Assembly: GCF_003334355.1 (NCBI RefSeq)
Contig: NZ_QOWP01000016.1
Strand: one strand, 5' to 3'
DNA from: Escherichia coli
Lineage (GTDB): Bacteria; Pseudomonadota; Gammaproteobacteria; Enterobacterales; Enterobacteriaceae
DNA: 64,000 bases
The notes under the pieces are model-generated. The model was not told the DNA's origin. It saw nothing but the letters and a program-made list of their open reading frames with translations, and searched no databases. A program made the position numbers and the translations under genes. Below are positions 10,000-28,819 of the stretch, piece after piece. Positions within the stretch are counted from its first letter, which is position 1. Each line of letters starts with the position of its first letter.

Positions 10000-10106
10000 T
10001 GCCGGATGATCCTGCCTACGGTTCTGGCCTGGGGACTTGTAGGCCTGATAAGACGCGTCAAACGTCGCATCAGGCGCTGAATGTCGGATGTGGCGTGCGG
10101 CCTACA
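10000..10106. repeat. REP-type extragenic palindromes between convergent ygcQ and ygcP
   Basis: GCCGGATG... and TGTAGGCCTGATAAGACGCG...CGCATCAGGCG motifs typical of E. coli REP elements. Confidence 0.55.
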
Positions 10107-10141
10107 AATCAAACCAAATTCAATTGGTTACGATTATCCCG

Positions 10142-10717: not shown

Positions 10718-10733
10718 AAATTATCCTTATTAT

Positions 10734-10994
10734 TTATCCAAAGCGGTAGGTGATGCCGAATCCGGAAGGCGGATAGCGCCACTGTTGTAGTGTTGATTCG
10801 TCGCACAGCAAACGGCAGGTGCCACACTCCAGGCAACTGCGATAGTCAATACGTAAGTCACCTTCCGGTGTGAGCGAAAAAAGACCTGCCGGACAGGCGT
10901 TAATCAACCGTTCTGCCGTCTGGCGCTCAACGGAGTCAGCCGGAACAATGTGCGGCGCATCAGCAACGCGCCAGAGATTACGGGCTACAGACAT
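10734..10994 (-). CDS. ygcO: FixX-like 4Fe-4S ferredoxin-like protein
   Basis: Cysteine cluster CLECGTCRLLC in the translated ORF; 86-aa version from the internal Met; overlaps the ygcN stop. Confidence 0.8.
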   Translation of the reverse strand: MSVARNLWRVADAPHIVPADSVERQTAERLINACPAGLFSLTPEGDLRIDYRSCLECGTCRLLCDESTLQQWRYPPSGFGITYRFG

Positions 10995-12256
10995 CGCAGA
11001 CTCCTGATAACATCGCCCGCCAGATGCCACAGGCCGTGACGACGTAAATGATGCCAGAATAACTGGCGCAGCGGTGGAACAGGTTTATCACCCTGATCCC
11101 ATAAATCGCGGGAAATATCCTGCATTAACGCAGGCCACGTACGGTACCATCCCGGGCGTTGCAAAAGCGCCGGAACATGCTGATAACGCTGTAGAACATC
11201 CCACAGCAGGCTGCGCTCTACGTTGTGATGATAAAGCGGAAACAGATTTTGCGGCTCGCGGTGCTGGCAGGCGCTTATCAGCGTTTGTGCCGCCGCCTGC
11301 GCGCCAGTCAGCGCCATATCCATGCCGCGCACGGAAATTCCGGTATTGACGCAACTGCGCAACGCATCGCCCACCAGCAGCCAGCCGTTACCGGCGTATT
11401 GCACCGGCATACTGTGCAAGCCACCTTCTGGCACCAGATGCGCACCATACTCCAGTGATTCCGTGTTTTTGATAAGCGGGCGCACTGCCGGATGCGCTTT
11501 AAAGCGAGTCAGCAGCTCGCTTGCCGGAACACGGCTTTGCGTAAGGGAAGAGAGCGGGCAAACAATCCCTAACGAGAGCGTTTGTTGATTAGTATAAAGA
11601 AATGCGCCGCCGGGTAAGTCATCACAGATCCCGCCGCTGAACAGCAACGCTGCGCCTTCGTTATTCTCCAGATGAAAACGTTCTTCAATAGCGGATGTTT
11701 CCAGCGACAGCACTTCTTTGATCCCCAACGCCATCGCTTCGCCAGCAGGACGAGTCACTAACCCGTGACGCTCAGCCAGGACGCTGTTGGCACCTTCTGC
11801 CAGCACCACATAACGGGCGCGGAGAATATCGTCACCACAAATGACACCACACACCCTGCCGTTTTCTTCATACAGTGCATCCACCGTCGCACCAGGGATG
11901 CATTCGACACCTTCTTTTTCGGCTTCGGCAACCAGCCACGGATCGAACCGTGCACGTAATACACTCCAGGATTCACCGCCGGGCTGTAAGCTGGAAAACG
12001 TCGTTGCGCCATCCGGCGTTAACAGGGAAAGGCTTTCGTGAGTGATGCATCGTTCAAGAGGCGCGGTCAGATGAAACTGAGGGAGGAGTTCCGCGAGTGC
12101 ATGGGTATATAACCGCCCGCCGGAAAGATTTTTGCTGCCGGGGATTTCAGCGCGTTCCAGTAACAAAACGGATAAACCCGCTCGCGCGCAGCGTAACGCG
12201 CAAGCGGTGCCTGCAATACCGGCACCAATAATAATAATGTCGCAGTCGTCTTCCAT
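10985..12256 (-). CDS. ygcN: FAD-dependent oxidoreductase (FixC / ETF-quinone oxidoreductase-like)
   Basis: 423 aa from MEDDCDIIIIGAGIAGTACA, which contains the GxGxxG dinucleotide-binding motif. Confidence 0.88.
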   Translation of the reverse strand: MEDDCDIIIIGAGIAGTACALRCARAGLSVLLLERAEIPGSKNLSGGRLYTHALAELLPQFHLTAPLERCITHESLSLLTPDGATTFSSLQPGGESWSVLRARFDPWLVAEAEKEGVECIPGATVDALYEENGRVCGVICGDDILRARYVVLAEGANSVLAERHGLVTRPAGEAMALGIKEVLSLETSAIEERFHLENNEGAALLFSGGICDDLPGGAFLYTNQQTLSLGIVCPLSSLTQSRVPASELLTRFKAHPAVRPLIKNTESLEYGAHLVPEGGLHSMPVQYAGNGWLLVGDALRSCVNTGISVRGMDMALTGAQAAAQTLISACQHREPQNLFPLYHHNVERSLLWDVLQRYQHVPALLQRPGWYRTWPALMQDISRDLWDQGDKPVPPLRQLFWHHLRRHGLWHLAGDVIRSLRCL

Positions 12257-12333: not shown

Positions 12334-12699
12334 TCATTCGCCGCGATAGATACAACCAGCGGTGCAGGTTTCTTTTACCATCACCGCACTTAACAGCGGC
12401 ACAACGGGTTTAACCTGATCCCAAATCCATTTTGCTAAAACTTCGCTGGTCGGGTTTTCCAGGCCTGGAATATCATTGAGATAATGGTGATCGAGGCGCT
12501 CATAAGTTGGCTTAAACGCTGCTTTCAGTTCAGCGAAATCGATAATCCAGCCCGTATGCGGATCGACTTCCCCGGTAATTTCCAGTCGCACCATAAAGGA
12601 ATGCCCGTGCAGGCGACCACATTTATGCCCTTCCGGGACGTGTGGTAAGCGGTGAGCGGCTTCGAAGGTGAAATCTTTAAATAACGTGGTGGACATCAT
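12334..12699 (-). CDS. queD: 6-carboxy-5,6,7,8-tetrahydropterin synthase (queuosine biosynthesis)
   Basis: 121 aa starting [33 protein letters not shown], as recalled for QueD. Confidence 0.9.
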
Positions 12700-13014
12700 A
12701 ATTTCTCTACAGGACGATAAAACCGCCGTAGAGTACCGGAAAGGCTGTTTTTTCGCATTATCTAAAACGACTTTGTTGCGCAAAATCGCTGATTTATCTT
12801 AATGATTGGCTAAATTCATTTGTTTTTCATTAGGTTGGTTAATCTATTTTGTTGTTAAAGACTATTGCTAAAACAGGTTAGTCGATTTGGTTATTAGTTA
12901 TCGCTATCCCGTCTTTAATCCACACCGTTCACCCCGTTAACCTTACCTTCTCTTCTGTTTTATGGGCGCTGACAGGGCGCAGAAACAGCTTTGCTTACTG
13001 GAACATAACGACGC

Positions 13015-14814
13015 ATGACGACACAGGTCCCACCTTCCGCGTTGCTTCCGTTGAACCCGGAGCAACTGGTACGCCTTCAGGCGGCCACGACCGATTTAAC
13101 TCCCACCCAGCTTGCCTGGGTTTCTGGCTATTTCTGGGGCGTGCTCAATCAGCAGCCTGCTGCGCTTGCAGCGACGCCAGCTCCCGCCGCAGAAATGCCG
13201 GGTATAACTATTATCTCCGCCTCGCAAACCGGCAATGCGCGCCGGGTTGCTGAAGCATTACGTGATGATTTATTAGCGGCAAAACTGAACGTTAAGCTGG
13301 TGAACGCGGGCGACTATAAATTCAAACAAATCGCCAGCGAAAAACTGCTTATCGTGGTGACGTCAACGCAAGGAGAAGGGGAACCGCCGGAAGAAGCCGT
13401 CGCGCTGCATAAGTTCCTGTTCTCCAAAAAAGCGCCGAAGCTGGAAAACACCGCATTTGCCGTGTTTAGCCTCGGCGATAGCTCTTATGAATTTTTCTGC
13501 CAGTCCGGGAAAGATTTTGACAGCAAGCTGGCGGAACTGGGCGGTGAACGCCTGCTCGACCGTGTCGATGCCGACGTTGAATACCAGACCGCTGCCAGCG
13601 AGTGGCGCGCTCGTGTGGTTGATGCGCTTAAATCGCGTGCGCCTGTCGCGGCACCTTCGCAATCCGTCGCTACTGGCGCGGTAAATGAAATCCACACCAG
13701 CCCGTACAGCAAAGACGAGCCGCTGGTGGCGAGCCTCTCTGTTAACCAGAAAATTACCGGGCGTAACTCTGAAAAAGACGTTCGCCATATCGAAATTGAC
13801 TTAGGTGACTCGGGCCTGCGTTACCAGCCGGGTGACGCGCTGGGCGTCTGGTATCAGAACGATCCGGCACTGGTGAAAGAACTTGTCGAACTGCTGTGGC
13901 TGAAAGGCGATGAACCTGTCACCGTCGAGGGCAAAACGTTGCCTCTGAACGAAGCGCTACAGTGGCACTTCGAACTGACCGTCAACACCGCCAACATTGT
14001 TGAGAATTACGCCACGCTTACCCGCAGTGAAACACTGCTGCCGCTGGTGGGCGATAAAGCGAAGTTACAGCATTACGCCGCGACGACGCCGATTGTTGAC
14101 ATGGTGCGTTTCTCCCCGGCACAGCTTGATGCCGAAGCGCTAATTAATCTGCTGCGCCCGCTGACGCCGCGTCTCTATTCCATTGCCTCCTCGCAGGCGG
14201 AAGTCGAGAACGAAGTACACGTCACCGTTGGTGTGGTGCGTTACGACGTGGAAGGCCGCGCCCGTGCCGGTGGTGCCTCCAGCTTCCTCGCTGACCGCGT
14301 GGAAGAAGAGGGCGAAGTCCGCGTATTTATCGAACATAACGATAACTTCCGCCTACCAGCCAATCCAGAAACCCCGGTGATTATGATTGGCCCAGGCACC
14401 GGTATCGCGCCGTTCCGCGCCTTTATGCAGCAACGTGCTGTCGATGAAGCACCGGGTAAAAACTGGCTGTTCTTTGGCAACCCGCACTTTACGGAAGATT
14501 TCCTCTACCAGGTGGAGTGGCAGCGCTACGTCAAAGAGGGCGTGCTGACACGTATCGATCTCGCCTGGTCGCGCGATCAAAAAGAAAAAGTTTACGTACA
14601 AGACAAACTACGCGAACAGGGCGCGGAGCTGTGGCGCTGGATCAATGACGGTGCCCACATTTATGTCTGCGGCGACGCTAATCGCATGGCGAAAGACGTT
14701 GAGCAGGCACTTCTGGAAGTGATTGCCGAATTTGGTGGCATGGACACCGAAGCGGCGGATGAATTTTTAAGTGAACTGCGCGTAGAGCGCCGTTATCAGC
14801 GAGATGTCTACTAA
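13015..14814 (+). CDS. cysJ: Sulfite reductase [NADPH] flavoprotein alpha subunit
   Basis: 599-aa ORF; TAATG overlap with cysI. Confidence 0.95.
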
Positions 14815-16526
14815 TGAGCGAAAAACATCCAGGGCCTTTAGTGGTCGAAGGAAAACTGACAGACGCCGAGCGCATGAAGCTTGAAAGCAACTACCTGCGC
14901 GGCACCATTGCGGAAGATTTAAACGATGGCCTGACCGGCGGCTTTAAGGGCGATAACTTCCTGCTGATCCGCTTCCACGGCATGTATCAGCAGGATGACC
15001 GCGACATCCGCGCCGAACGTGCTGAACAGAAGCTGGAGCCGCGCCACGCGATGCTGCTTCGCTGTCGTCTGCCGGGTGGGGTGATTACCACTAAACAGTG
15101 GCAGGCGATCGACAAATTTGCCGGTGAAAACACCATCTATGGCAGCATTCGCCTGACCAACCGCCAGACGTTTCAGTTCCACGGCATTCTGAAAAAGAAC
15201 GTCAAACCGGTGCACCAGATGCTGCACTCGGTTGGTCTTGATGCGCTGGCGACCGCTAACGACATGAACCGTAACGTACTCTGCACCTCGAACCCTTACG
15301 AGTCGCAGCTACACGCGGAAGCGTATGAATGGGCGAAGAAAATCTCTGAACATCTGCTGCCGCGTACCCGCGCGTATGCGGAGATCTGGCTCGATCAGGA
15401 AAAAGTCGCCACCACCGATGAAGAACCGATCCTCGGTCAGACTTATTTGCCGCGTAAATTCAAAACCACGGTAGTGATCCCGCCGCAGAACGATATCGAT
15501 CTGCATGCCAACGACATGAACTTCGTGGCAATCGCCGAAAACGGCAAGCTGGTAGGCTTTAACCTGCTGGTGGGCGGCGGGCTTTCCATCGAACACGGTA
15601 ATAAGAAAACCTACGCCCGCACGGCGAGCGAGTTTGGTTATCTGCCGCTGGAGCATACCCTGGCGGTGGCGGAAGCCGTCGTGACGACTCAGCGCGATTG
15701 GGGTAACCGTACCGATCGTAAAAATGCCAAAACCAAATACACGCTGGAGCGCGTGGGTGTTGAGACATTTAAAGCGGAAGTGGAACGTCGCGCGGGGATC
15801 AAATTCGAACCGATCCGCCCGTATGAATTTACAGGGCGCGGCGATCGCATTGGTTGGGTAAAAGGCATTGATGACAAATGGCACCTGACGCTGTTTATCG
15901 AAAATGGCCGAATCCTTGATTATCCGGGGCGTCCGCTGAAAACCGGCCTGCTGGAGATCGCGAAGATCCACAAAGGCGATTTCCGTATTACGGCGAACCA
16001 GAATCTGATCATCGCCGGTGTACCTGAAAGCCAGAAAGCGAAGATCGAGAAGATCGCTAAAGAGAGCGGGTTAATGAATGCCGTCACGCCGCAGCGTGAA
16101 AACTCAATGGCCTGCGTGTCATTCCCGACTTGCCCGCTGGCGATGGCGGAAGCGGAGCGTTTCCTGCCGTCTTTTATCGACAACATCGATAATTTAATGG
16201 CGAAACATGGTGTCAGCGATGAGCATATCGTGATGCGTGTAACAGGCTGCCCGAACGGTTGTGGTCGCGCGATGCTGGCGGAAGTGGGCCTGGTGGGTAA
16301 AGCGCCGGGTCGCTACAACCTGCATCTTGGCGGCAACCGCATTGGGACACGTATCCCACGGATGTATAAAGAAAACATCACCGAGCCGGAAATCCTGGCG
16401 TCGCTTGATGAACTGATAGGGCGCTGGGCGAAAGAGCGCGAAGCGGGCGAAGGCTTCGGCGACTTTACGGTGCGTGCGGGCATCATTCGCCCGGTGCTCG
16501 ATCCGGCGCGCGATTTGTGGGATTAA
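14814..16526 (+). CDS. cysI: Sulfite reductase [NADPH] hemoprotein beta subunit
   Basis: 570-aa ORF immediately after cysJ. Confidence 0.95.
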
Positions 16527-16542
16527 CCATCAGCCCGGTCTT

Positions 16543-16580
16543 GTAGGCCTGATAAGAACGCGTGAGCGTCGCATCAGGCA
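16543..16580. repeat. REP-type palindrome between cysI and cysH
   Basis: TGTAGGCCTGATAAGAACGCGTGAGCGTCGCATCAGGCA. Confidence 0.5.
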
Positions 16581-16600
16581 AGGCAAACAGTGAGGAATCT

Positions 16601-17335
16601 ATGTCCAAACTCGATCTAAACGCCCTGAACGAACTGCCGAAGGTAGATCGCATTCTGGCGCTGGCGGAAACTAACGCCGAACTGGAAAAACTGGACGCTG
16701 AAGGCCGCATAGCCTGGGCGCTGGATAATCTGCCCGGTGAATATGTACTTTCTTCCAGCTTTGGCATTCAGGCGGCGGTGAGCCTGCATCTGGTGAATCA
16801 AATTCGCCCGGATATTCCGGTGATCCTCACCGATACGGGTTACTTGTTCCCGGAAACCTACCGCTTTATTGACGAGTTAACGGACAAACTCAAGCTCAAC
16901 CTGAAAGTGTACCGTGCTACCGAAAGCGCAGCCTGGCAGGAAGCACGCTACGGAAAACTGTGGGAGCAGGGCGTTGAAGGCATTGAAAAGTACAATGACA
17001 TCAACAAAGTCGAACCGATGAACCGGGCTCTGAAAGAACTTAACGCGCAAACCTGGTTTGCTGGCCTGCGCCGTGAACAATCCGGCAGTCGCGCCAATTT
17101 ACCGGTGCTGGCAATTCAGCGTGGCGTATTTAAAGTGCTGCCGATTATCGACTGGGATAACCGAACTATTTATCAGTACCTGCAAAAACATGGCCTGAAA
17201 TATCACCCATTATGGGATGAAGGATATTTATCGGTCGGTGATACCCATACAACCCGTAAATGGGAATCTGGCATGTCGGAAGAAGAAACACGTTTCTTTG
17301 GCTTAAAAAGGGAATGTGGATTGCACGAAGGGTAA
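16601..17335 (+). CDS. cysH: Phosphoadenosine phosphosulfate reductase
   Basis: 244 aa from [14 protein letters not shown]. Confidence 0.93.
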
Positions 17336-17353
17336 ATATTGCCGGATAAATTA

Positions 17354-17391
17354 AACGCCTCTGTCAGAAATGATGGGGGCGTTTTTATTTT
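17354..17391 (+). terminator. Putative intrinsic terminator after cysH
   Basis: AACGCCTC pairs with GGGGCGTT (one G-U), then TTTATTTTG. Confidence 0.5.
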
Positions 17392-17693
17392 GCGAGCAGT
17401 ATTCCTGATTTTAAACGTGAACGCCGCTGGAAGAATTATCAGGTATAGAATGGCGTCGGGTGCTTGAGGCTGTCTGGCGTTAAGCATTCGCGAGGTTCCA
17501 GATGGACAAAAGCCCCAGGCGATATTTCTATCAACCTGAGGCCAGCGTTCGAACCCAAACAATTCGAATGTTAGTCTCTTCTTTGCAGGGAGGCAAGACA
17601 TGTGTATATCACTGTAATTCGATATTTATGAGCAGCATCGAAAAATAGCCCGCTGATATCATCGATAATACTAAAAAAACAGGGAGGCTATTA

Positions 17694-17825
17694 ATGGAAC
17701 CTTTTAAATATATATGCCATTACTGGGGAAAATCCTCAAAAAGCTTGACGAAAGGAAATGATATTCATCTGTTAATTTATCATTGCCTTGATGTTGCTGC
17801 TGTTGCAGATTGCTGGTGGGATTAA
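17694..17825 (+). pseudogene. cas3: cas3 5' segment: 43 codons (MEPFKYICHYWGKSSKSLTKGNDIHLLIYHCLDVAAVADCWWD) closed by an in-frame TAA
   Basis: ATG at 17694 with AGGGAGG 7 nt upstream; TAA at 17823-17825; the same frame continues into the 832-codon ORF. Confidence 0.7.
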
Positions 17826-17861
17826 TCAGTCGTACTGCAAAATACTTTTTGCCGAAATGAA

Positions 17862-20360
17862 ATGCTATCAAAACAGAGGGTGAAGGCCTGGCTGTTATTT
17901 TTCATTGCTCTTCATGATATTGGAAAGTTTGATATACGATTCCAATATAAATCAGCAGAAAGTTGGCTGAAATTAAATCCTGCAACGCCATCACTTAATG
18001 GTCCATCAACACAAATGTGCCGTAAATTTAATCATGGTGCAGCCGGTCTGTATTGGTTTAACCAGGATTCACTTTCAGAGCAATCTCTCGGGGATTTTTT
18101 CAGTTTTTTTGATGCCGCTCCTCATCCTTATGAGTCCTGGTTTCCATGGGTAGAGGCCGTTACAGGACATCATGGTTTTATATTACATTCCCAGGATCAA
18201 GATAAGTCGCGTTGGGAAATGCCAGCTTCTCTGGCATCTTATGCTGCGCAAGATAAACAGGCTCGTGAGGAGTGGATATCTGTACTGGAAGCATTATTTT
18301 TAACGCCAGCGGGGTTATCTATAAACGATATACCACCTGATTGTTCATCACTGTTAGCAGGTTTTTGCTCGCTTGCTGACTGGTTAGGCTCCTGGACTAC
18401 AACGAATACCTTTCTGTTTAATGAGGATGCGCCTTCCGACATAAATGCTCTGAGAACGTATTTCCAGGACCGACAGCAGGATGCGAGCCGGGTATTGGAG
18501 TTGAGTGGACTTGTATCAAATAAGCGATGTTATGAAGGTGTTCATGCACTACTGGACAATGGCTATCAACCCAGACAATTACAGGTGTTAGTTGATGCTC
18601 TTCCAGTAGCTCCCGGGCTGACGGTAATAGAGGCACCTACAGGCTCCGGTAAAACGGAAACAGCGCTGGCCTATGCTTGGAAACTTATTGATCAACAAAT
18701 TGCGGATAGTGTTATTTTTGCCCTCCCAACACAAGCTACCGCGAATGCTATGCTTACGAGAATGGAAGCGAGCGCGAGCCACTTATTTTCATCCCCAAAT
18801 CTTATTCTTGCTCATGGCAATTCACGGTTTAACCACCTCTTTCAATCAATAAAATCACGCGCGATTACTGAACAGGGGCAAGAAGAAGCGTGGGTTCAGT
18901 GTTGTCAGTGGTTGTCACAAAGCAATAAGAAAGTGTTTCTTGGGCAAATCGGCGTTTGCACGATTGATCAGGTGTTGATATCGGTATTGCCAGTTAAACA
19001 CCGCTTTATCCGTGGTTTGGGAATTGGTCGAAGTGTTTTAATTGTTGATGAAGTTCATGCTTACGACACCTATATGAACGGCTTGCTGGAGGCAGTGCTC
19101 AAGGCTCAGGCTGATGTGGGAGGGAGTGTTATTCTTCTTTCCGCAACCCTACCAATGAAACAAAAACAGAAACTTCTGGATACTTATGGTCTGCATACAG
19201 ATCCAGTGGAAAATAACTCCGCATATCCACTCATTAACTGGCGAGGTGTGAATGGTGCGCAACGTTTTGATCTGCTAGCTCATCCAGAACAACTCCCGCC
19301 CCGCTTTTCGATTCAGCCAGAACCTATTTATTTAGCTGACATGTTACCTGACCTTACGATGTTAGAGCGAATGATCGCAGCGGCAAACGCGGGTGCACAA
19401 GTCTGTCTTATTTGCAATTTGGTTGACGTTGCACAAGTATGCTACCAACGGCTAAAGGAGCTAAATAACACGCAAGTAGATATAGATTTGTTTCATGCAC
19501 GCTTTACGCTGAACGATCGTCGAGAAAAAGAGAATCGTGTTATTAGCGATTTCGGAAAAAATGGGGAGCGAAATGTTGGACGAATACTTGTCGCCACGCA
19601 AGTCGTGGAACAATCGCTCGACGTTGATTTTGATTGGTTAATTACCCAGCATTGTCCCGCAGATTTGCTTTTCCAACGATTGGGTCGTTTACATCGCCAT
19701 CATCGCAAATATCGTCCCGCTGGTTTTGAGATTCCTGTTGCCACCATTTTGCTGCCTGATGGCGAGGGTTACGGACGACATGAGCATATTTATAGCAACG
19801 TTAGAGTCATGTGGCGGACGCAGCAACATATTGAGGAACTTAATGGAGCATCCTTATTTTTCCCTGATGCCTACCGGCAATGGCTGGATAGCATTTACGA
19901 TGATGCTGAAATGGATGAGCCAGAATGGGTCATCAAAGGCATGGATAAGTTTGAAAGCGCTGAGTGTGAAAAGAGGTTCAAGGCTCGCAAGGTTCTGCAG
20001 TGGGCTGAAGAATATAGTTTGCAGGATAACGATGAAACCATTCTTGCGGTAACGAGGGATGGGGAAATGAGCCTGCCATTATTGCCTTATGTACAAACGT
20101 CTTCAGGTAAACAACTGCTCGATGGCCAGGTCTACGAGGACCTAAGTTATGAACAGCAGTATGAGGCGCTTGCACTTAATCGCGTCAATGTACCCTTCAC
20201 CTGGAAACGTAGTTTTTCTGAAGTAGTAGATGAAGATGGGTTACTTTGGCTGGAAGGGAAACAGAATCAGGATGGATGGTTCTGGCAGGGTAACAGTATT
20301 GTTATTACCTACACTCGGGATGAAGGGATGACCAGAGTCATCCCTGCAAATCCCAAATAA
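17862..20360 (+). CDS. cas3: Cas3 HD-nuclease/helicase, longest intact ORF (832 aa); lacks the first 56 codons of the recalled 888-aa protein
   Basis: HD motif (FFIALHDIGKF), Walker A (APTGSGKTE) and DEVH box (LIVDEVHAYD) are all present; no obvious SD upstream of ATG 17862. Confidence 0.85.
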   Translation: MLSKQRVKAWLLFFIALHDIGKFDIRFQYKSAESWLKLNPATPSLNGPSTQMCRKFNHGAAGLYWFNQDSLSEQSLGDFFSFFDAAPHPYESWFPWVEAVTGHHGFILHSQDQDKSRWEMPASLASYAAQDKQAREEWISVLEALFLTPAGLSINDIPPDCSSLLAGFCSLADWLGSWTTTNTFLFNEDAPSDINALRTYFQDRQQDASRVLELSGLVSNKRCYEGVHALLDNGYQPRQLQVLVDALPVAPGLTVIEAPTGSGKTETALAYAWKLIDQQIADSVIFALPTQATANAMLTRMEASASHLFSSPNLILAHGNSRFNHLFQSIKSRAITEQGQEEAWVQCCQWLSQSNKKVFLGQIGVCTIDQVLISVLPVKHRFIRGLGIGRSVLIVDEVHAYDTYMNGLLEAVLKAQADVGGSVILLSATLPMKQKQKLLDTYGLHTDPVENNSAYPLINWRGVNGAQRFDLLAHPEQLPPRFSIQPEPIYLADMLPDLTMLERMIAAANAGAQVCLICNLVDVAQVCYQRLKELNNTQVDIDLFHARFTLNDRREKENRVISDFGKNGERNVGRILVATQVVEQSLDVDFDWLITQHCPADLLFQRLGRLHRHHRKYRPAGFEIPVATILLPDGEGYGRHEHIYSNVRVMWRTQQHIEELNGASLFFPDAYRQWLDSIYDDAEMDEPEWVIKGMDKFESAECEKRFKARKVLQWAEEYSLQDNDETILAVTRDGEMSLPLLPYVQTSSGKQLLDGQVYEDLSYEQQYEALALNRVNVPFTWKRSFSEVVDEDGLLWLEGKQNQDGWFWQGNSIVITYTRDEGMTRVIPANPK

Positions 20361-20410
20361 CTTCGGGAATGATTGGTATCAATGACGATAACAAGACCAA
20401 TAACGGTTTA

Positions 20411-20428
20411 TCCCTACTTAAGTAGGGA
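20411..20428. other. 18-bp perfect palindrome TCCCTACTTAAGTAGGGA downstream of cas3
   Basis: Self-complementary around CTTAAG; no U-tract follows. Confidence 0.4.
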
Positions 20429-20429
20429 A

Positions 20430-20774
20430 GGTGCACAATGTACATCTTCTTTTAATTTCCCGGTATGAGATTTTATATTCGCAGTATGAATATTTTATGT
20501 AATAAAATTTATGGTAATTATTATAACTAAAAGTTTCTTTGATAATAAAACGAATAACTTGCAGATTTGAAATGCATGCATTATTGTCTTTAAACAATTC
20601 AACACATCTTAATATATGTATAGGTTAATTGTATTTAACCAATGAATATATTTTTGCAGTGAATGTGATTATTGAATTAATTACGCCGTATTTTTTCTTT
20701 GTTTTTACCGATAACGGAAGTGTGCCGACGTATAGAAATGCAGGAGAAATGTCGGAGCATATGAAGGAGAACAA
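20430..20774 (+). promoter_or_regulatory. AT-rich cas3-casA intergenic region carrying the casA operon promoter (Pcas; H-NS/LeuO control known in K-12)
   Basis: About 345 bp of visibly AT-rich non-coding DNA directly upstream of casA; promoter elements not pinpointed. Confidence 0.5.
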
Positions 20775-22283
20775 ATGAATTTGCTTATTGATAACTGGAT
20801 CCCTGTACGCCCGCGAAACGGGGGGAAAGTCCAAATCATAAATCTGCAATCGCTATACTGCAGTAGAGATCAGTGGCGATTAAGTTTGCCCCGTGACGAT
20901 ATGGAACTGGCCGCTTTAGCACTGCTGGTTTGCATTGGGCAAATTATCGACCCGGCAAAAGATGACGTTGAATTTCGACATCGCATAATGAATCCGCTCA
21001 CTGAAGATGAGTTTCAACAACTCATCGCGCCGTGGATAGATATGTTCTACCTTAATCACGCAGAACATCCCTTTATGCAGACCAAAGGTGTCAAAGCAAA
21101 TGATGTGACTCCAATGGAAAAACTGTTGGCAGGGGTAAGCGGCGCGACGAATTGTGCTTTTGTCAATCAACCGGGTCAGGGTGAAGCATTATGTGGTGGA
21201 TGCACTGCGATTGCGTTATTCAACCAGGCGAATCAGGCACCTGGTTTTGGTGGTGGCTTTAAAAGCGGTTTACGTGGAGGAACACCTATAACCACCTTCG
21301 TACGTGGGATCGATCTTCGCTCGACGGTGTTACTCAATGTCCTCACAATACCTCGTCTTCAAAAACAATTTCCCAATGAATCACATACGGAAAACCAACC
21401 TACCTGGGTTAAGCCTGTCAAACCCAATGAATCTGTGCCAGCTTCGTCAATTGGCTTTGTCCGCGGCTTATTCTGGCAACCTGCGCATATTGAATTATGC
21501 GATCCCATTGGGATTGGAAAATGTTCTTGCTGTGGACAGGAAAGCAATTTGCGTTATACCGGTTTTCTTAAGGAAAAATTTACCTTTACAGTTAATGGGC
21601 TATGGCCCCATCCGCATTCCCCTTGTCTGGTAACAGTCAAGAAAGGGGAGGTTGAGGAAAAATTTCTTGCTTTCACCACCTCCGCACCATCATGGACACA
21701 AATCAGCCGAGTTGTGGTAGATAAGATTATTCAAAATGAAAATGGAAATCGCGTGGCGGCGGTTGTGAATCAATTCAGAAATATTGCGCCGCAAAGTCCT
21801 CTTGAATTGATTATGGGGGGATATCGTAATAATCAAGCATCTATTCTTGAACGGCGTCATGATGTGTTGATGTTTAATCAGGGGTGGCAACAATACGGCA
21901 ATGTGATAAACGAAATAGTTACTGTTGGTTTGGGATATAAAACAGCCTTACGCAAGGCGTTATATACCTTTGCAGAAGGGTTTAAAAATAAAGACTTTAA
22001 AGGGGCTGGAGTCTCTGTTCATGAGACTGCAGAAAGGCATTTCTATCGACAGAGTGAATTATTAATTCCCGATGTACTGGCGAATGTTAATTTTTCCCAG
22101 GCTGATGAGGTCATAGCTGATTTACGAGACAAACTTCATCAATTGTGTGAAATGTTATTTAATCAATCTGTAGCGCCCTATGCACATCATCCTAAATTAA
22201 TAAGCACATTAGCGCTCGCCCGCGCCACGCTATACAAACATTTACGGGAGTTAAAACCGCAAGGAGGGCCATCAAATGGCTGA
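20775..22283 (+). CDS. casA: Cascade large subunit Cse1
   Basis: 502 aa, MNLLIDNWIPVRPRNGGKV... Confidence 0.95.
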   Translation: MNLLIDNWIPVRPRNGGKVQIINLQSLYCSRDQWRLSLPRDDMELAALALLVCIGQIIDPAKDDVEFRHRIMNPLTEDEFQQLIAPWIDMFYLNHAEHPFMQTKGVKANDVTPMEKLLAGVSGATNCAFVNQPGQGEALCGGCTAIALFNQANQAPGFGGGFKSGLRGGTPITTFVRGIDLRSTVLLNVLTIPRLQKQFPNESHTENQPTWVKPVKPNESVPASSIGFVRGLFWQPAHIELCDPIGIGKCSCCGQESNLRYTGFLKEKFTFTVNGLWPHPHSPCLVTVKKGEVEEKFLAFTTSAPSWTQISRVVVDKIIQNENGNRVAAVVNQFRNIAPQSPLELIMGGYRNNQASILERRHDVLMFNQGWQQYGNVINEIVTVGLGYKTALRKALYTFAEGFKNKDFKGAGVSVHETAERHFYRQSELLIPDVLANVNFSQADEVIADLRDKLHQLCEMLFNQSVAPYAHHPKLISTLALARATLYKHLRELKPQGGPSNG

Positions 22284-22758
22284 TGAAATTGATGCAATGG
22301 CTTTATATCGAGCCTGGCAACAACTGGATAACGGAGCATGTGCGCAAATTAGACGTGTTTCAGAACCTGATGAATTACGCGATATCCCTGCGTTTTATAG
22401 GCTGGTGCAACCTTTTGGTTGGGAAAACCCACGTCACCAGCAGGCTCTTTTACGCATGGTGTTTTGCCTGAGCGCAGGAAAGAATGTCATCCGACATCAG
22501 GACAAAAAACCGGAGCAAACAACAGGTATCTCGTTGGGAAGAGCTTTAGCCAATAGTGGAAGAATTAACGAGCGCCGTATCTTTCAATTAATTCGGGCTG
22601 ACAGAACAGCCGATATGGTCCAGTTACGTCGATTGCTTGCTCACGCCGAACCCGTACTTGACTGGCCATTAATGGCCAGGATGTTGACCTGGTGGGGAAA
22701 GCGCGAACGCCAGCAACTTCTGGAAGATTTTGTATTGACCACAAACAAAAATGCGTAA
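22276..22758 (+). CDS. casB: Cascade small subunit Cse2
   Basis: 160 aa; overlaps the casA end. Confidence 0.95.
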   Translation: MADEIDAMALYRAWQQLDNGACAQIRRVSEPDELRDIPAFYRLVQPFGWENPRHQQALLRMVFCLSAGKNVIRHQDKKPEQTTGISLGRALANSGRINERRIFQLIRADRTADMVQLRRLLAHAEPVLDWPLMARMLTWWGKRERQQLLEDFVLTTNKNA

Positions 22759-22770
22759 GGAAACCTTTCT

Positions 22771-23862
22771 ATGTCTAACTTTATCAATATTCATGTTCTG
22801 ATCTCTCACAGCCCTTCATGTCTGAACCGCGACGATATGAACATGCAGAAAGACGCTATTTTCGGCGGGAAAAGACGAGTAAGAATTTCAAGTCAAAGCC
22901 TTAAACGTGCGATGCGTAAAAGTGATTATTACGCACAAAATATTGGTGAATCCAGTCTCAGAACAATTCATCTTGCACAATTACGTGATGTTCTTCGGCA
23001 AAAACTTAGTGAACGTTTTGACCAAAAAATCATCGATAAGACATTAGCGCTGCTCTCCGGTAAATCAGTTGATGAAGCCGAAAAGATTTCTGCCGATGCG
23101 GTTACTCCCTGGGTTGTGGGGGAAATAGCCTGGTTCTGTGAGCAGGTTGCAAAAGCAGAGGCTGATAATCTGGATGATAAAAAGCTGCTCAAAGTTCTTA
23201 AGGAAGATATTGCCGCCATACGTGTGAATTTACAGCAGGGTGTTGATATTGCGCTTAGTGGAAGAATGGCAACCAGCGGCATGATGAGTGAGTTGGGAAA
23301 AGTTGATGGTGCAATGTCTATTGCGCACGCGATCACTACCCATCAGGTTGATTCTGATATTGACTGGTTCACCGCCGTAGATGATTTACAGGAACAAGGT
23401 TCTGCACATCTGGGAACACAGGAATTTTCATCGGGTGTTTTTTATCGTTATGCCAATATTAACCTCGCTCAACTTCAGGAAAATTTAGGCGGTGCCTCCA
23501 GGGAGCAGGCTCTGGAAATTGCAACCCATGTTGTTCATATGCTGGCAACAGAGGTCCCTGGAGCAAAACAGCGTACTTATGCCGCTTTTAACCCTGCGGA
23601 TATGGTAATGGTTAATTTCTCCGATATGCCACTTTCTATGGCAAATGCTTTTGAAAAAGCGGTGAAAGCGAACGATGGCTTTTTGCAACCGTCTTTACAG
23701 GCGTTTAATCAATATTGGGATCGCGTTGCCAATGGATATGGTCTGAACGGAGCCGCTGCGCAATTCAGCTTGTCTGATGTAGACCCTATTACTGGCCAGG
23801 TACAGCAAATGCCTACTTTAGAACAGTTAAAGTCCTGGGTTCGTAATAATGGCGAGGCGTGA
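22771..23862 (+). CDS. casC: Cascade backbone subunit Cas7
   Basis: 363 aa. Confidence 0.95.
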
Positions 23863-23864
23863 AC

Positions 23865-24539
23865 ATGAGATCTTATTTGATCTTGCGACTTGCTGGGCCA
23901 ATGCAAGCCTGGGGGCAGCCGACCTTTGAAGGAACGCGACCTACCGGAAGATTTCCGACCCGAAGCGGGTTATTAGGGCTACTCGGGGCTTGTCTTGGGA
24001 TCCAACGTGATGATACTTCTTCATTACAGGCGTTATCAGAGAGTGTGCAATTTGCAGTGCGCTGCGATGAACTCATTCTTGACGATCGTCGTGTGTCTGT
24101 AACGGGGTTGCGTGATTACCATACAGTCCTTGGAGCGCGAGAAGATTACCGTGGTTTGAAAAGTCATGAAACGATTCAAACATGGCGCGAATATTTATGT
24201 GATGCCTCCTTTACCGTCGCTCTCTGGTTAACACCACAGGCAACGATGGTTATGTCAGAACTTGAAAAAGCAGTATTAAAGCCTCGGTATACACCGTATC
24301 TGGGGCGGAGGAGTTGTCCGCTAACACAACCGCTTTTTCTCGGGACATGTCAGGCATCGGATCCTCAGAAGGTGCTATTAAATTATGAGCCCGTTGGCGG
24401 CGATATTTATAGTGAGGAATCAGTTGACGGGCATCATTTAAAATTTACGGTGCGCGACGAACCGATGATCACCTTGCCTCGACAATTTGCTTCCCGAGAA
24501 TGGTATGTGATTAAAGGAGGTATGGATGTATCTCAGTAA
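23865..24539 (+). CDS. casD: Cascade subunit Cas5
   Basis: 224 aa from ATG 23865 (MRSYLILRLAGPMQAWG). Confidence 0.93.
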   Translation: MRSYLILRLAGPMQAWGQPTFEGTRPTGRFPTRSGLLGLLGACLGIQRDDTSSLQALSESVQFAVRCDELILDDRRVSVTGLRDYHTVLGAREDYRGLKSHETIQTWREYLCDASFTVALWLTPQATMVMSELEKAVLKPRYTPYLGRRSCPLTQPLFLGTCQASDPQKVLLNYEPVGGDIYSEESVDGHHLKFTVRDEPMITLPRQFASREWYVIKGGMDVSQ

Positions 24540-25125
24540 AGTCATCATTGCCAGGGCCTGGAGCAGGGATCTTTACCAACTTCACCAGGGATTATGGCAT
24601 TTATTTCCAAACAGACCGGATGCTGCTCGTGATTTTCTTTTTCATGTTGAGAAGCGAAACACACCAGAAGGCTGTCATGTTTTATTGCAGTCAGCGCAAA
24701 TGCCTGTTTCAACTGCCGTTGCGACAGTCATTAAAACTAAACAGGTTGAATTTCAACTTCAGGTTGGTGTTCCACTCTATTTTCGGCTTCGGGCAAATCC
24801 GATAAAAACTATTCTCGACAATCAAAAACGCCTGGACAGTAAAGGGAATATAAAACGCTGTCGGGTTCCGTTAATAAAAGAAGCAGAACAAATCGCGTGG
24901 TTGCAGCGTAAATTGGGCAATGCCGCGCGCGTTGAAGATGTGCATCCCATATCGGAACGACCACAGTATTTTTCTGGTGATGGTAAAAGTGGAAAGATCC
25001 AAACGGTTTGCTTTGAAGGGGTGATCACCATCAACGACGCGCCAGCGTTAATAGATCTTGTACAGCAAGGTATTGGGCCAGCCAAATCGATGGGATGTGG
25101 CTTGCTATCCCTGGCTCCACTGTGA
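24526..25125 (+). CDS. casE: Cas6e pre-crRNA endoribonuclease
   Basis: 199 aa; 14-bp overlap with casD. Confidence 0.95.
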   Translation: MYLSKVIIARAWSRDLYQLHQGLWHLFPNRPDAARDFLFHVEKRNTPEGCHVLLQSAQMPVSTAVATVIKTKQVEFQLQVGVPLYFRLRANPIKTILDNQKRLDSKGNIKRCRVPLIKEAEQIAWLQRKLGNAARVEDVHPISERPQYFSGDGKSGKIQTVCFEGVITINDAPALIDLVQQGIGPAKSMGCGLLSLAPL

Positions 25126-25140
25126 TTAAGGTGTAATAAA

Positions 25141-26344
<1,204 letters not shown>

Positions 26345-26449
26345 AAACAAAGAATTAGCTGATCTTTAATAATAAGGAAATGTTACATTAAGGTTGGTGG
26401 GTTGTTTTTATGGGAAAAAATGCTTTAAGAACAAATGTATACTTTTAGA
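26345..26449 (+). promoter_or_regulatory. CRISPR leader (crRNA promoter and spacer-integration region)
   Basis: AT-rich 105 bp between the cas2 stop and the first repeat, ending ...ACTTTTAGA. Confidence 0.8.
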
Positions 26450-26600
26450 GAGTTCCCCGCGTCAGCGGGGATAAACCGCCAAAGCAAAAGAAGTCGTCGA
26501 TAATATGCGTGAGTTCCCCGCGTCAGCGGGGATAAACCGGGCGCACTGGATGCGATGATGGATATCACTTAGAATTCCCCGCCCCTGCGGTAGAACACCC
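26450..26600 (+). CRISPR. Cas-adjacent CRISPR array (CRISPR2.1-like): 2 intact repeats plus a degenerate terminal repeat, 2 spacers
   Basis: GAGTTCCCCGCGTCAGCGGGGATAAACCG at 26450 and 26511 (T at repeat position 13, where the distal array has C); degenerate GAATTCCCCGCCCCTGCGGTAGAACACCC at 26572. Confidence 0.93.
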
Positions 26601-26620
26601 AGCTCCCATTTTCAAACCCA

Positions 26621-27658
26621 TCAAGACGCCTTCGCCAACTCCTTCACCAGAGGTAGCATTATCCGCATAACGTCACGGCAGCGACGTTCTATTCTTCCAG
26701 GAAGTGCCTTATCAATATGCTGTTGATTATCCAGTCTTACGTCATGCCAGCTATTTCCCGCAGGGAATGCGGCTGTTTTTGCGCGTTGCTGATAACCATC
26801 CTTATTCCCAAGATTCCAGTTAGTCGCTTCCACCGAAAGTACAGCAATGCCCGCTTTGTCGAATATTTCTGCGTCATTACAACACCCAGTGCCTTTCGGA
26901 TAATTTTTATTCAAACCCGGATTGGTCGTTGCGGCTATTCCGTGACTGCGTGCAATTGCCAGCGCCCTGTCGCGCGTTAATTTCCTTACTGCTTCAGGGG
27001 TTTTTACACCGCTGTTGAAATACAATTTATCGCCAACAATTAAGTTATCGAGATTAATCACCAGCAGCGTATTTTTCTTTTCGGTGTCACTCATCCGCTT
27101 GAGTAAATTCTCAGCGCCTAATTTCCCTTCCTCTTCGCCGCTGGTCGCCACAAATCGAATACCATACTCGGTAGGCGTATTTTTCAGGCGTTCTGCCAAT
27201 TCCAGCATGACACCTAAACCTGCGGCGTTATCATCCATTCCTTGTAACGTCAGCCCGCCGAGATTGGCATCGGCGTCAGCATCGCTCAGCGGGGCGTAAG
27301 TATCCAGATGCGCCATAATGATGATCTGCTGCGGCGCTTTGCCTTCATGAGCGGCAATCACCGTACTTCCCGTCACGTTATGCCAGCTCTTACGATTATC
27401 GCGGGCGGTATAAATATACCGACTATTAAATGTCCGAATATCACTGCGATAACCCATTTGCTGAAACTGTTGGCGAATATAATCGGCAGATAACATTTCT
27501 GCAGGAGTTCCGGTCATGCGTCCCGGAAAGAAAGTAGCAATATGTCGTGCCTGAGTATTAGCAAAATCGCCAGGTTTAGGTGACGAGGCGTGTACGGGGA
27601 GAATAAAGCATACGCCGAGCGCCAGGGCAGCGGTACGGTGGCGCAATGCGGAAAACAT
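26621..27658 (-). CDS. iap: Alkaline phosphatase isozyme conversion aminopeptidase
   Basis: 345-aa ORF. Confidence 0.9.
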   Translation of the reverse strand: MFSALRHRTAALALGVCFILPVHASSPKPGDFANTQARHIATFFPGRMTGTPAEMLSADYIRQQFQQMGYRSDIRTFNSRYIYTARDNRKSWHNVTGSTVIAAHEGKAPQQIIIMAHLDTYAPLSDADADANLGGLTLQGMDDNAAGLGVMLELAERLKNTPTEYGIRFVATSGEEEGKLGAENLLKRMSDTEKKNTLLVINLDNLIVGDKLYFNSGVKTPEAVRKLTRDRALAIARSHGIAATTNPGLNKNYPKGTGCCNDAEIFDKAGIAVLSVEATNWNLGNKDGYQQRAKTAAFPAGNSWHDVRLDNQQHIDKALPGRIERRCRDVMRIMLPLVKELAKAS

Positions 27659-27909
27659 AGTGAGTCCTTAAATACCATGCAAATTTTTTTACCGCCATAG
27701 TATGAAACTGCCGCTGCGCTAAAACAATTTCAAATCTTCCTAAACGCCCGAAATCCGGTGCCTTAAGCACTTTTTGATATTAGCTTTGCCAAATCGTTAT
27801 TCCGTTAAGGAACTACTCATTCTAATTGGTAATTTCATTCGTTCTCTTACGCTCCCTATAGTCGAAACATCTGATGGCAAGAAAATAGCGGTATTGCAAA
27901 GGAACGGTT

Positions 27910-28818
27910 ATGGATCAAATACGACTTACTCACCTGCGGCAACTGGAGGCGGAAAGCATCCACATTATTCGCGAGGTGGCGGCAGAATTCTCAAATCCGG
28001 TGATGCTCTACTCTATCGGTAAAGATTCCAGCGTCATGCTGCATCTGGCGCGCAAGGCGTTTTATCCAGGTACGCTGCCTTTCCCGTTGCTGCATGTCGA
28101 TACCGGCTGGAAATTCCGCGAGATGTATGAGTTCCGCGATCGTACTGCTAAAGCCTACGGCTGCGAACTGCTGGTGCATAAAAACCCGGAAGGCGTGGCG
28201 ATGGGGATTAATCCATTCGTGCACGGCAGCGCGAAACATACCGATATTATGAAAACTGAAGGCCTAAAACAGGCGCTGAACAAATACGGTTTTGATGCCG
28301 CCTTCGGTGGTGCGCGCCGTGACGAAGAGAAATCCCGCGCTAAAGAGCGAATTTACTCTTTCCGTGACCGCTTCCATCGCTGGGATCCGAAAAATCAGCG
28401 CCCGGAGCTGTGGCACAACTACAACGGGCAAATTAACAAAGGCGAAAGCATCCGCGTCTTCCCGCTCTCTAACTGGACCGAGCAGGATATCTGGCAATAC
28501 ATCTGGCTGGAAAATATCGACATTGTTCCGCTATATCTCGCTGCGGAACGTCCGGTTCTGGAACGCGACGGTATGTTGATGATGATTGATGACAACCGTA
28601 TCGACCTGCAACCGGGCGAAGTGATTAAAAAACGGATGGTGCGTTTCCGTACGCTGGGCTGCTGGCCGCTGACCGGTGCGGTGGAGTCAAATGCACAAAC
28701 ACTGCCGGAAATCATCGAAGAGATGCTGGTTTCCACCACCAGTGAACGTCAGGGCCGCGTGATTGACCGCGACCAGGCGGGGTCTATGGAGCTGAAAAAA
28801 CGTCAGGGGTATTTTTAA
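27910..28818 (+). CDS. cysD: Sulfate adenylyltransferase subunit 2
   Basis: 302 aa. Confidence 0.95.
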
Positions 28819-28819
28819 G

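What the first reader, a model, noticed from the sequence alone, without database searches (positions are those of the whole stretch)
12334..27909. Both CRISPR blocks sit between functionally linked genes
The cas operon, cas-adjacent array and iap lie between cysJIH (ending 17335) and cysDNC (starting 27910), splitting the sulfate-assimilation genes. From recalled K-12 synteny, the distal array and ygc cluster lie between queD (in window) and queE/ygcF (beyond the left edge). This suggests both blocks were inserted into older operon neighbourhoods.
Basis: partly seen in the sequence, partly recalled or inferred. Interest (0 to 1): 0.35.

Follow-up and report, generated by a model that had tools for sequence, protein, structure and literature searches.

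The report
E. coli CRISPR loci at known hotspots
This is the textbook E. coli type I-E CRISPR-Cas neighbourhood: the cas genes, both repeat arrays and a sugar-metabolism cluster sit in two gaps between tail-to-tail genes of an older queuosine/sulfate-assimilation gene block, which the literature already describes.

Summary
In the window the order is distal I-E array, ygc cluster, queD, cysJIH, cas3-cas2, a short array, iap, cysDNC. queE lies just beyond the left edge in near-identical strains.

A comparison with 80 Enterobacterales species gives the older layout: queE> <queD cysJIH> <iap cysG-cysDNC>.
- queE and queD are directly adjacent in 40 of 75 species.
- cysH and iap are directly adjacent in 28 species.
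- The empty junctions hold only one terminator hairpin.
- I-E cas genes at cysH|iap occur only in Enterobacteriaceae: 7 species besides E. coli, and none of 36 species from other families.
- The cas genes have foreign composition (GC3 0.38-0.43, against 0.53-0.66 for the cys genes).

So insertion is supported, with four corrections:
- iap is an old resident, not part of the inserted block.
- The array and the ygc cluster are independent insertions.
- No operon is split. queD and queE are convergent, and cysJIH and cysDNC are separate units.
- Both junctions also hold unrelated metabolic cargo in other genera.

All of this is essentially published (Touchon & Rocha 2010; Almendros et al. 2014; Fabre et al. 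2012). Interest is low.

The parts
1..78 (.). Terminal part of an IS421 (IS4-family) copy that interrupts the distal array. The leader and queE lie beyond the left edge.
   Evidence: positions 1-78 match regions annotated as IS421 in several E. coli genomes; they align to the end of IS421 in L001.
79..900 (+). Distal orphan I-E array (CRISPR-II, CRISPR2.3): 14 repeats with a 61-bp period.
901..1405 (.). AT-rich spacer region (27.5% GC) between the CRISPR2.3 and CRISPR2.2 units.
1406..1494 (+). Two degenerate repeats (CRISPR2.2 remnant). They are also retained in cas-less B2 strain IHE3034.
1539..12256 (.). The ygc cluster (ygcE, yqcE, ygcW, ygcU, ygcS, ygcR, ygcQ, ygcP, ygcO, ygcN). It is an accessory carbohydrate/ETF-type cluster found next to queD in only 13 of 75 species.
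12334..12696 (-). queD (6-carboxytetrahydropterin synthase). It is convergent with queE in the ancestral layout.
13015..17335 (+). The cysJIH operon.
17353..17384 (+). Intrinsic-terminator-like hairpin followed by a T run, directly after cysH. It is retained to the left of the inserted block.
17458..17617 (+). Remnant of a hok/sok locus. The sok RNA is present, but the hok ORF is cut after 5 codons (17600-17617). This is the left junction of the cas-E2 module.
   Evidence: PMC3903273 reports hok-sok absent only in E2 strains.
17603..26609 (+). A 9,007-bp block (upstream region of cas3, eight cas genes, leader, array) that is absent from B2 E. coli IHE3034.
   Evidence: (breakpoints).
17694..20360 (+). 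cas3 of the K-12 (E2) type, with a premature TAA at 17823-17825 (codon 44).
20775..25125 (+). Cascade genes casA(cse1), casB(cse2), cas7, cas5 and cas6e. GC3 is 0.38-0.42.
25141..26344 (+). cas1-cas2 adaptation module.
26345..26449 (+). AT-rich leader of the cas-adjacent array (27% GC).
26450..26600 (+). cas-adjacent array (CRISPR-I, CRISPR2.1): two full repeats, two spacers and a degenerate terminal repeat. The units are shared with an E1-type strain.
26621..27658 (-). iap, an old resident between the two cys operons. It is convergent with cysH.
27910..30852 (+). The cysDNC operon. The cysG gene that precedes cysD in 41 of 58 other species is absent here.

Best explanation
The window is the well-known E. 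coli CRISPR-I/CRISPR-II neighbourhood. The older Enterobacterales layout is queE> <queD cysJIH> <iap cysG-cysDNC>.

This layout has two tail-to-tail gene junctions, queE|queD and cysH|iap. When empty, each holds only a single terminator hairpin of 23-100 bp. Accessory DNA has accumulated at these two junctions.

In this strain the cysH|iap junction holds a K-12-type (E2) type I-E cas operon with its leader and a two-spacer array (17603-26609). The queE|queD junction holds an orphan I-E array next to queE, here cut by IS421, and a separately acquired ygc metabolic cluster next to queD.

iap is not part of any insert. Because DNA landing at a 3'-3' junction removes no promoter and breaks no transcription unit, such insertions are tolerated. 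That tolerance explains why both CRISPR blocks appear to split functionally linked genes.

Shown here: the layout, the junction coordinates, the presence/absence patterns, the composition, and the empty-site structure.

Inferred: the direction of the events (gain within Enterobacteriaceae), from parsimony. The route of gain is homologous recombination in conserved flanks or at a resident array, as proposed in PMC2886076 and PMC3903273. The idea that tolerance, rather than targeting, explains the hotspot behaviour is also inferred.
For: - Identity: the window is 99.8% identical to E. coli PSS-12, and all 30 reference proteins map at 100%.
- Within E. coli (5,426 complete genomes): 1,120 carry this block at >=80% coverage. 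B2 strains have cysH-hok-iap with nothing else. Others carry a divergent I-E variant or IS421 in place of cas.
- Junction queE|queD across 80 species: adjacent in 40, I-E array in 3, ygc cluster in 13, other cargo in 19.
- Junction cysH|iap across the same species: adjacent in 28, I-E cas in 7 (all Enterobacteriaceae, 0 of 36 in other families), other cargo in 26, iap absent in 10.
- Empty sites are single hairpins between two stop codons.
- Occupancy by more than 600 bp is 34/75 and at least 21/69 at the two convergent junctions. It is 4/76 and 2/48 at the adjacent divergent junctions that carry promoters, and 0-1 inside operons.
- Composition: cas GC3 is 0.38-0.43 with codon-usage distance 0.21-0.30. 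The cys genes have GC3 0.53-0.66 and distance 0.12-0.18.
- The cysH terminator hairpin is retained at 17353-17384.
- Cargo at the same sites in other genera is unrelated metabolism or prophage, with no PADLOC defence hits.
- Literature: CRISPR1 lies between core genes cysD-cysJ and CRISPR2 between cysJ-ygcF, with arrays proposed as integration hotspots (PMC2886076). E1/E2 module exchange at iap-cysH is described in PMC3903273. Salmonella has iap-CRISPR1-cas-sopD-cysHIJ-ptpS-ORF-CRISPR2-ygcF without the ygc cluster (PMC3356390). Klebsiella I-E also lies at iap-cysH (PMC6054925).
Against: - The cas-less state in B2 E. coli is a secondary loss, not a never-occupied site. Orphan repeats persist beside ygcE, and PMC3903273 infers deletion. 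Empty sites elsewhere could therefore also be clean losses.
- The ygc genes have native-like composition (GC3 0.44-0.62), so gain versus repeated loss is not settled for that cluster.
- The 80 loci are the best-scoring CysI matches. They contain no Salmonella, no Morganellaceae or Budviciaceae, and no outgroup order.
- The maps come from tblastn with E. coli queries, not from curated annotation.
- Many cysH|iap entries scored as 'cargo' are only 400-900 bp and may be long intergenic DNA or small ORFs.
- The contrast between convergent and divergent junctions rests on four junctions in one neighbourhood.
Confidence: 0.8

Rival explanations
1. Ancestral presence with differential loss. Under this reading the I-E cas block, both arrays and the ygc cluster were already at these positions in the common ancestor of Enterobacterales, or at least of Enterobacteriaceae. 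The short junctions seen in other species would then be clean deletions.
For: Losses do happen. B2 E. coli lack cas but keep orphan repeats. BL21-type strains have IS421 in place of cas. L005, L029, L030 and L043 keep 2-4 orphan I-E repeats without cas genes. Cas1 divergence between genera (82-96% amino-acid identity) is similar to that of the flanking CysH (88-93%), which fits long vertical residence within Enterobacteriaceae. ygc composition is native-like.
Against: None of 36 species of Erwiniaceae, Yersiniaceae, Pectobacteriaceae or Hafniaceae has I-E cas or I-E repeats at either junction. Empty sites contain just one hairpin and no repeat debris. cas3 to cas6e have GC3 0.38-0.42. Cas3 and Cascade proteins at the same locus in other genera are only 23-37% identical to the window's, which implies replacement by foreign modules (PMC3903273).
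Confidence: 0.13
2. Functional coupling. Under this reading the CRISPR blocks sit beside cys and que genes because of co-regulation or a shared role. One example would be sulfur status or 7-deazaguanine metabolism feeding into phage defence.
For: Both flanks are functionally coherent gene sets, and the arrangement is conserved in Escherichia and Salmonella (PMC2886076, PMC3356390). No direct evidence was obtained here.
Against: The same two junctions carry unrelated cargo in other genera: arabinofuranosidase plus symporter, MFS transporter plus amidohydrolase, glucose-1-phosphatase, beta-glucoside PTS, cysteine desulfurase and prophage genes. Most species have nothing there. cas is separated from cysH by a terminator hairpin and a hok/sok remnant.
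Confidence: 0.03
3. Coincidence. Under this reading the position between linked genes carries no information, because any insertion in a gene-dense bacterial chromosome lands between some pair of genes that may be related.
For: Only two junctions are involved, and bacterial genomes are rich in functional clusters.
Against: The same two junctions are occupied repeatedly and independently across genera, about ten times more often than the neighbouring divergent junctions. The flanking pairs are adjacent in most CRISPR-free species.
Confidence: 0.04

Closest known systems
E. coli K-12 CRISPR-I (iap-cysH, cas-E2 variant) and CRISPR-II (ygcE-ygcF) loci, described by Diez-Villasenor 2010, Touchon & Rocha 2010 (PMC2886076) and Almendros 2014 (PMC3903273)
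   Same: Same chromosomal positions, gene order, repeat sequence and E2 cas variant (98.2% nucleotide identity to K-12 over cysH-cysD). The hok ORF is missing while the sok remnant is present. The orphan distal array lies next to queE.
   Different: This strain has a nonsense codon in cas3 (17823-17825). Its cas-adjacent array has only two spacers. IS421 interrupts the distal array.
Salmonella enterica CRISPR1/CRISPR2 region (Fabre 2012, PMC3356390)
   Same: The backbone is the same: iap-CRISPR1-cas-cysHIJ-queD(ptpS)-CRISPR2-queE(ygcF). Both arrays flank the queD-cysJIH core.
   Different: Salmonella lacks the ygc cluster, having only one ORF between queD and CRISPR2. It has sopD between cas3 and cysH, and it carries the other cas sequence variant. 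This is taken from the paper. No Salmonella locus was among those fetched here.
Klebsiella pneumoniae type I-E system at iap-cysH (Shen 2017, as cited in PMC6054925)
   Same: Same insertion site, with presence/absence polymorphism between strains. Here, Klebsiella indica (L010) has cas at this site, while K. michiganensis (L012) has other cargo.
   Different: The Cascade and Cas3 proteins at this site in other genera are only 23-37% identical to the window's.
Chromosomal integration hotspots between conserved core genes (the concept used by Touchon & Rocha, PMC2886076)
   Same: Conserved flanks, variable content across strains and species, and no integrase or tRNA required.
   Different: Here the empty state is specifically a tail-to-tail junction holding one terminator hairpin. 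I did not find this detail in the papers I read. It is a descriptive refinement, not a new kind of element.

Membership tests
Type I-E CRISPR-Cas locus (E. coli CRISPR-I, cas-E2 variant) | Eight cas genes in the order cas3-cse1-cse2-cas7-cas5-cas6e-cas1-cas2 | tested here: met
   all eight map at 100% identity to PGAP-annotated proteins of strain PSS-12, in that order.
Type I-E CRISPR-Cas locus (E. coli CRISPR-I, cas-E2 variant) | 29-bp repeat with 32-nt spacers (61-bp period) downstream of an AT-rich leader next to cas2 | tested here: met
   repeats start at 26450 and 26511, and the leader at 26345-26449 is 27% GC.
Type I-E CRISPR-Cas locus (E. coli CRISPR-I, cas-E2 variant) | E2 hallmarks: K-12-like cas sequences and absence of the hok toxin gene between cysH and cas3 | tested here: met
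   (98.2% identity to K-12 strains). (sok present, hok cut after 5 codons). Criterion taken from PMC3903273.
Type I-E CRISPR-Cas locus (E. coli CRISPR-I, cas-E2 variant) | All genes intact (needed for functional competence, not for membership) | tested here: not met
   cas3 has a TAA at codon 44. The other seven cas ORFs are intact.
CRISPR-II orphan array (CRISPR2.2/2.3) | Same repeat as CRISPR-I, no adjacent cas genes, located between ygcE and queE (ygcF) | tested here: met
   (14 + 2 repeats next to ygcE). The queE side is shown in near-identical strains L001 and L002 because it lies outside the window.
Horizontally acquired genomic island | Presence/absence polymorphism between conserved flanks | tested here: met
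   for the cas block, the arrays and the ygc cluster.
Horizontally acquired genomic island | Atypical base composition or codon usage | tested here: inconclusive
   met for the cas genes (GC3 0.38-0.43 against 0.53-0.66). Not met for most ygc genes (GC3 0.51-0.62), with only ygcW at 0.44.
Horizontally acquired genomic island | Mobility signatures: tRNA target, integrase, flanking direct repeats | tested here: not met
   (no tRNA in 1-32000). (no integrase ORF in either block). The only mobile element is IS421 inside the distal array.
Operon split by an insertion | Flanking genes form one transcription unit where the site is empty | tested here: not met
   queE and queD are convergent. cysH and iap are convergent, with iap between the cys operons in most species. 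Each empty site is a terminator hairpin. That cysJIH and cysDNC are separate CysB-regulated operons is established knowledge.

The most novel reading that the evidence does not exclude
The two tail-to-tail junctions that flank queD-cysJIH may be actively targeted rather than merely tolerated. For example, the bidirectional terminator hairpin could act as a recombination or integration substrate. That could include ectopic seeding of the orphan array next to queE by Cas1-Cas2. If so, hairpin-bearing convergent junctions would be a predictable, order-wide landing pad for CRISPR arrays and metabolic islands.
Probability: 0.08. Interest if true: 0.45.

Novelty: already known. Interest (0 to 1): 0.12.

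Why it matters
It matters little beyond housekeeping. The finding correctly recognises the classic E. coli I-E locus and its flanks, which have been described since 1987-2014. The cross-species map made here adds a modest refinement: the ancestral order queE> <queD cysJIH> <iap cysG-cysDNC. It also shows that both CRISPR blocks, and unrelated cargo in other genera, occupy the only two convergent junctions of that block. This is a tidy illustration of why accessory DNA can appear to split functional clusters without breaking any operon. It could serve as a small test case for rules on where islands are tolerated.

Tried and rejected
- Tandem Repeats Finder reported only fragments of the distal array and missed the two-repeat cas-adjacent array. 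A pattern search was used instead.
- I looked for classic island signatures. There was no tRNA, no integrase ORF, and no direct repeats at the borders.
- I tested whether the cysH|iap site is a defence island. PADLOC gave no credible hits for cargo in L012, L018, L029, L030, L033, L051 or L057. The only hits were generic ABC-ATPase-type matches for one L051 protein. NCBIfam shows metabolic or prophage genes instead.
- I compared the three AT-rich leader-like regions: the CRISPR-I leader, the CRISPR2.3 leader from L001, and window 901-1405. blastn-short found no similarity.
- I first read the 85-94% Cas1/Cas2 identity, against ~30% for Cascade, as a recent recombination breakpoint at cas6e|cas1. 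I rejected this because the E1 and E2 cas1-cas2 DNA is only 72% identical. Cas1 and Cas2 are simply far more conserved. The E1/E2 homology break on the right is at the first repeat (26452).
- An Rfam scan of 1-32000 found only sok.
- Salmonella was not among the 80 loci returned, so its layout is taken from PMC3356390 only.


Full report
**What is there.** The window is E. coli chromosome. Positions 10000-30000 match all 5,426 complete E. coli genomes, with the best match at 99.8% to strain PSS-12. The PGAP annotation of that strain was combined with a tblastn map of 30 reference proteins, all at 100% identity. Together they give this order:
- distal I-E array, 79-900, 14 repeats
- an AT-rich stretch, then two degenerate repeats at 1406-1494
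- ygcE through ygcN, 1539-12256
- queD, 12334-12696, minus strand
- cysJIH, 13015-17335
- cas3, 17694-20360
- casA to cas6e, 20775-25125
- cas1-cas2, 25141-26344
- leader, then a very short array at 26450-26600
- iap, 26621-27658, minus strand
- cysDNC, 27910-30852

queE is outside the window. It lies just left of the array in PSS-12 and in IHE3034. Window 1-78 is the end of an IS421 copy that cuts the distal array.

**Variation within E. coli.** A search with cysH to cysD found this K-12-type block at >=80% coverage in 1,120 of 5,426 genomes. Other genomes fall into three groups:
- Some carry a divergent I-E variant. The cysH and iap pieces are then reported as separate places, as in O157 strains.
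- Some have IS421 in place of cas, as in BL21.
- B2 strains such as IHE3034 and Nissle have only cysH-hok-iap.

Against IHE3034, the window carries an extra 9,007 bp at 17603-26609. The left junction falls at the second codon of hok. The sok RNA is still detected at 17458-17614 (RF01794, 103.7 bits), but the hok ORF stops after five codons. This matches the published statement that hok-sok is present in all strains except those with the E2 variant (PMC3903273). IHE3034 still has the ygc cluster and two orphan repeats next to ygcE, so its cas-less state is a secondary loss.

One scan of the species-representative genome collection with CysI returned 80 loci. They cover Enterobacteriaceae, Erwiniaceae, Yersiniaceae, Pectobacteriaceae and Hafniaceae. 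I mapped them with tblastn, searched them for I-E repeats, and tabulated the results.

At the queE|queD junction:
- The two genes are convergent and directly adjacent (23-350 bp) in 40 of 75 assessable species.
- Three species have an I-E array there, always on the queE side and in the same orientation as in E. coli.
- Thirteen have the ygc cluster, always abutting queD.
- Nineteen have other cargo. Examples are arabinofuranosidase plus symporter, MFS transporter plus amidohydrolase plus AraC regulator, glucose-1-phosphatase, and a pyrophosphatase-like gene.

At the cysH|iap junction:
- The genes are convergent and adjacent in 28 species.
- Seven species, all Enterobacteriaceae, have an I-E cas operon there.
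- Twenty-six have more than 350 bp of other DNA.
- Ten lack iap and have cysH followed by cysG-cysDNC.
- In eight, nothing was recognised up to the locus edge. Where examined, this DNA is a beta-glucoside PTS operon, amidase/GGT genes, or prophage.

The ~1.7-kb gap between iap and cysD in many genera is cysG (NF007922, 595 bits against a cutoff of 400). It is present in 41 of 58 species. The older layout is therefore queE> <queD cysJIH> <iap cysG-cysDNC>.

**What the empty sites look like.** In species with adjacent genes, the DNA between the two stop codons is a single GC-rich hairpin, often with flanking A and T runs. One example is AAAAAAGCCCGGTTAAACCGGGCTTTTTTT in Enterobacter asburiae. 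This looks like a shared bidirectional terminator. In the window, the terminator-like hairpin after cysH is retained at 17353-17384.

Occupancy by more than 600 bp differs sharply by junction type:

| Junction | Type | Occupied |
|---|---|---|
| queE\|queD | convergent | 34/75 |
| cysH\|iap | convergent | at least 21/69 |
| queD\|cysJ | divergent | 4/76 |
| iap\|cysG or cysD | divergent | 2/48 |
| inside cysJIH, cysG-cysD, cysDNC | within operon | 0-1 |

This fits a simple explanation. Insertions persist where they remove no promoter and interrupt no transcript.

**Composition.** The table below gives per-gene GC3 and codon-usage distance from the window's housekeeping genes.

| Genes | GC3 | Codon-usage distance |
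|---|---|---|
| cas3 to cas6e | 0.38-0.42 | 0.21-0.29 |
| cas1, cas2 | 0.43 | 0.22-0.30 |
| iap | 0.47 | 0.19 |
| six cys genes | 0.53-0.66 | 0.12-0.18 |
| ygc genes | 0.51-0.62 (ygcW 0.44) | 0.12-0.20 |

The sliding-window GC profile shows the same trough over 17000-25000. The cas block is therefore compositionally foreign, while the ygc cluster is not. There is no tRNA and no integrase.

**Interpretation.** Three facts back this:
- I-E cas or repeats at these junctions are confined to Enterobacteriaceae, with none in 36 species of other families.
- Empty sites are clean.
- The cas composition is deviant.

The idea needs four corrections:
- iap is an old resident found at this position across at least three families, so the two cys operons were already separated before cas arrived.
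- The array and the ygc cluster are independent. Phytobacter has the array without ygc, many species have ygc without the array, and B2 E. coli has ygc with only two orphan repeats.
- Nothing that was a single operon is split.
- For ygc, the direction (gain or loss) rests only on its patchy distribution and on YgcW/U/P being more conserved than flanking housekeeping proteins. In Mixta theicola, YgcW is 93% identical while CysJ is 76%.

The route of entry was not tested here. The literature proposes recombination in conserved flanks or at a resident array (PMC2886076) and IS-mediated deletion followed by replacement with an E2 module (PMC3903273). My comparison with an E1-type strain agrees: homology at 97.9% resumes exactly at the first repeat, 26452.

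**Comparison with what is known.**
- Touchon & Rocha (PMC2886076) define CRISPR1 as bounded by core genes cysD-cysJ and CRISPR2 by cysJ-ygcF. They propose that arrays act as integration hotspots.
- Almendros et al. (PMC3903273) describe CRISPR-I (iap-cysH), CRISPR-II (ygcE-ygcF), the E1 and E2 variants and their GC and codon usage.
- Fabre et al. (PMC3356390) give the Salmonella order iap-CRISPR1-cas-sopD-cysHIJ-ptpS-ORF-CRISPR2-ygcF.
- Klebsiella I-E systems are placed at iap-cysH (PMC6054925).

The finding is therefore already known. The only increment here is the order-wide map showing the ancestral layout and the convergent-junction pattern.

**Verdict.** Interest is 0.12.

Noticed in passing
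window 17823-17825: cas3 carries a premature TAA at codon 44, where strain PSS-12 has CAA (Gln). The next ATG at 17862 opens an 832-aa ORF. With only two spacers in the adjacent array, the system in this strain may be decaying.
   Followed up: partly
window 26450-26600; L083 8717-9965: [quoted passage not shown] It therefore holds only old trailer-end spacers and none specific to the E2 module.
   Followed up: partly
window 1-78: The left edge of the window is the terminal part of an IS421 element inserted in the distal array, as in strain PSS-12. It is not the array leader.
   Followed up: yes
window 17458-17617: A sok antitoxin RNA (Rfam RF01794, 103.7 bits) is present without its hok toxin ORF, which is cut after 5 codons. 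It marks the exact left junction of the E2 cas module.
   Followed up: yes
L004, L009, L010, L034, L037, L038, L039, L083 (cas operons downstream of cysH): Cas1 and Cas2 are 82-96% identical across genera and variants. Cas3 and the Cascade proteins are only 23-50% identical and fall into at least three effector variants at the same chromosomal site. E1 and E2 cas1-cas2 DNA is only 72% identical, so this reflects extreme constraint on the adaptation module rather than a recent breakpoint.
   Followed up: partly
window 4640-12256; ygc loci L016, L020, L025, L027, L028, L033, L035-L037, L039, L043, L052: The ygc cluster is a mosaic. YgcW, YgcU and YgcP stay 88-97% identical even in Mixta (Erwiniaceae, where CysJ is 76%). 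YgcR, YgcQ, YgcO and YgcN drop to 36-78%. Within E. coli the same four genes are also the most divergent (87-96% against 99-100%).
   Followed up: no
L005-L007, L012, L014, L015 and 35 other loci, between iap and cysD: A cysG (siroheme synthase) gene directly precedes cysD in 41 of 58 species. It is absent from this position in E. coli, Citrobacter, Cedecea, Kluyvera and a few others. The ancestral operon was probably cysG-cysDNC.
   Followed up: partly
L034 12833-13226; L038 12731-13309: Pluralibacter gergoviae and Phytobacter massiliensis have an additional I-E array between cysH and cas3, upstream of the cas operon. E. coli does not have this arrangement.
   Followed up: no
L033 15484-20124: A 1,546-aa ORF lies downstream of cysH in Entomohabitans teleogrylli. 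It has no NCBIfam, PADLOC or PHROG match.
   Followed up: partly
L030 12741-14101 and 14474-14624; L031 12752-14112: Two conserved ORFs (302 aa and 151 aa) occupy the cysH|iap site and have no informative family match. The 151-aa ORF has only a weak PHROG hit of unknown function. In L030 they lie next to three orphan I-E repeats.
   Followed up: partly
L013 between queE and queD: Klebsiella oxytoca has a lone ygcW-like SDR gene (76% identity) between queE and queD, without the rest of the ygc cluster.
   Followed up: no
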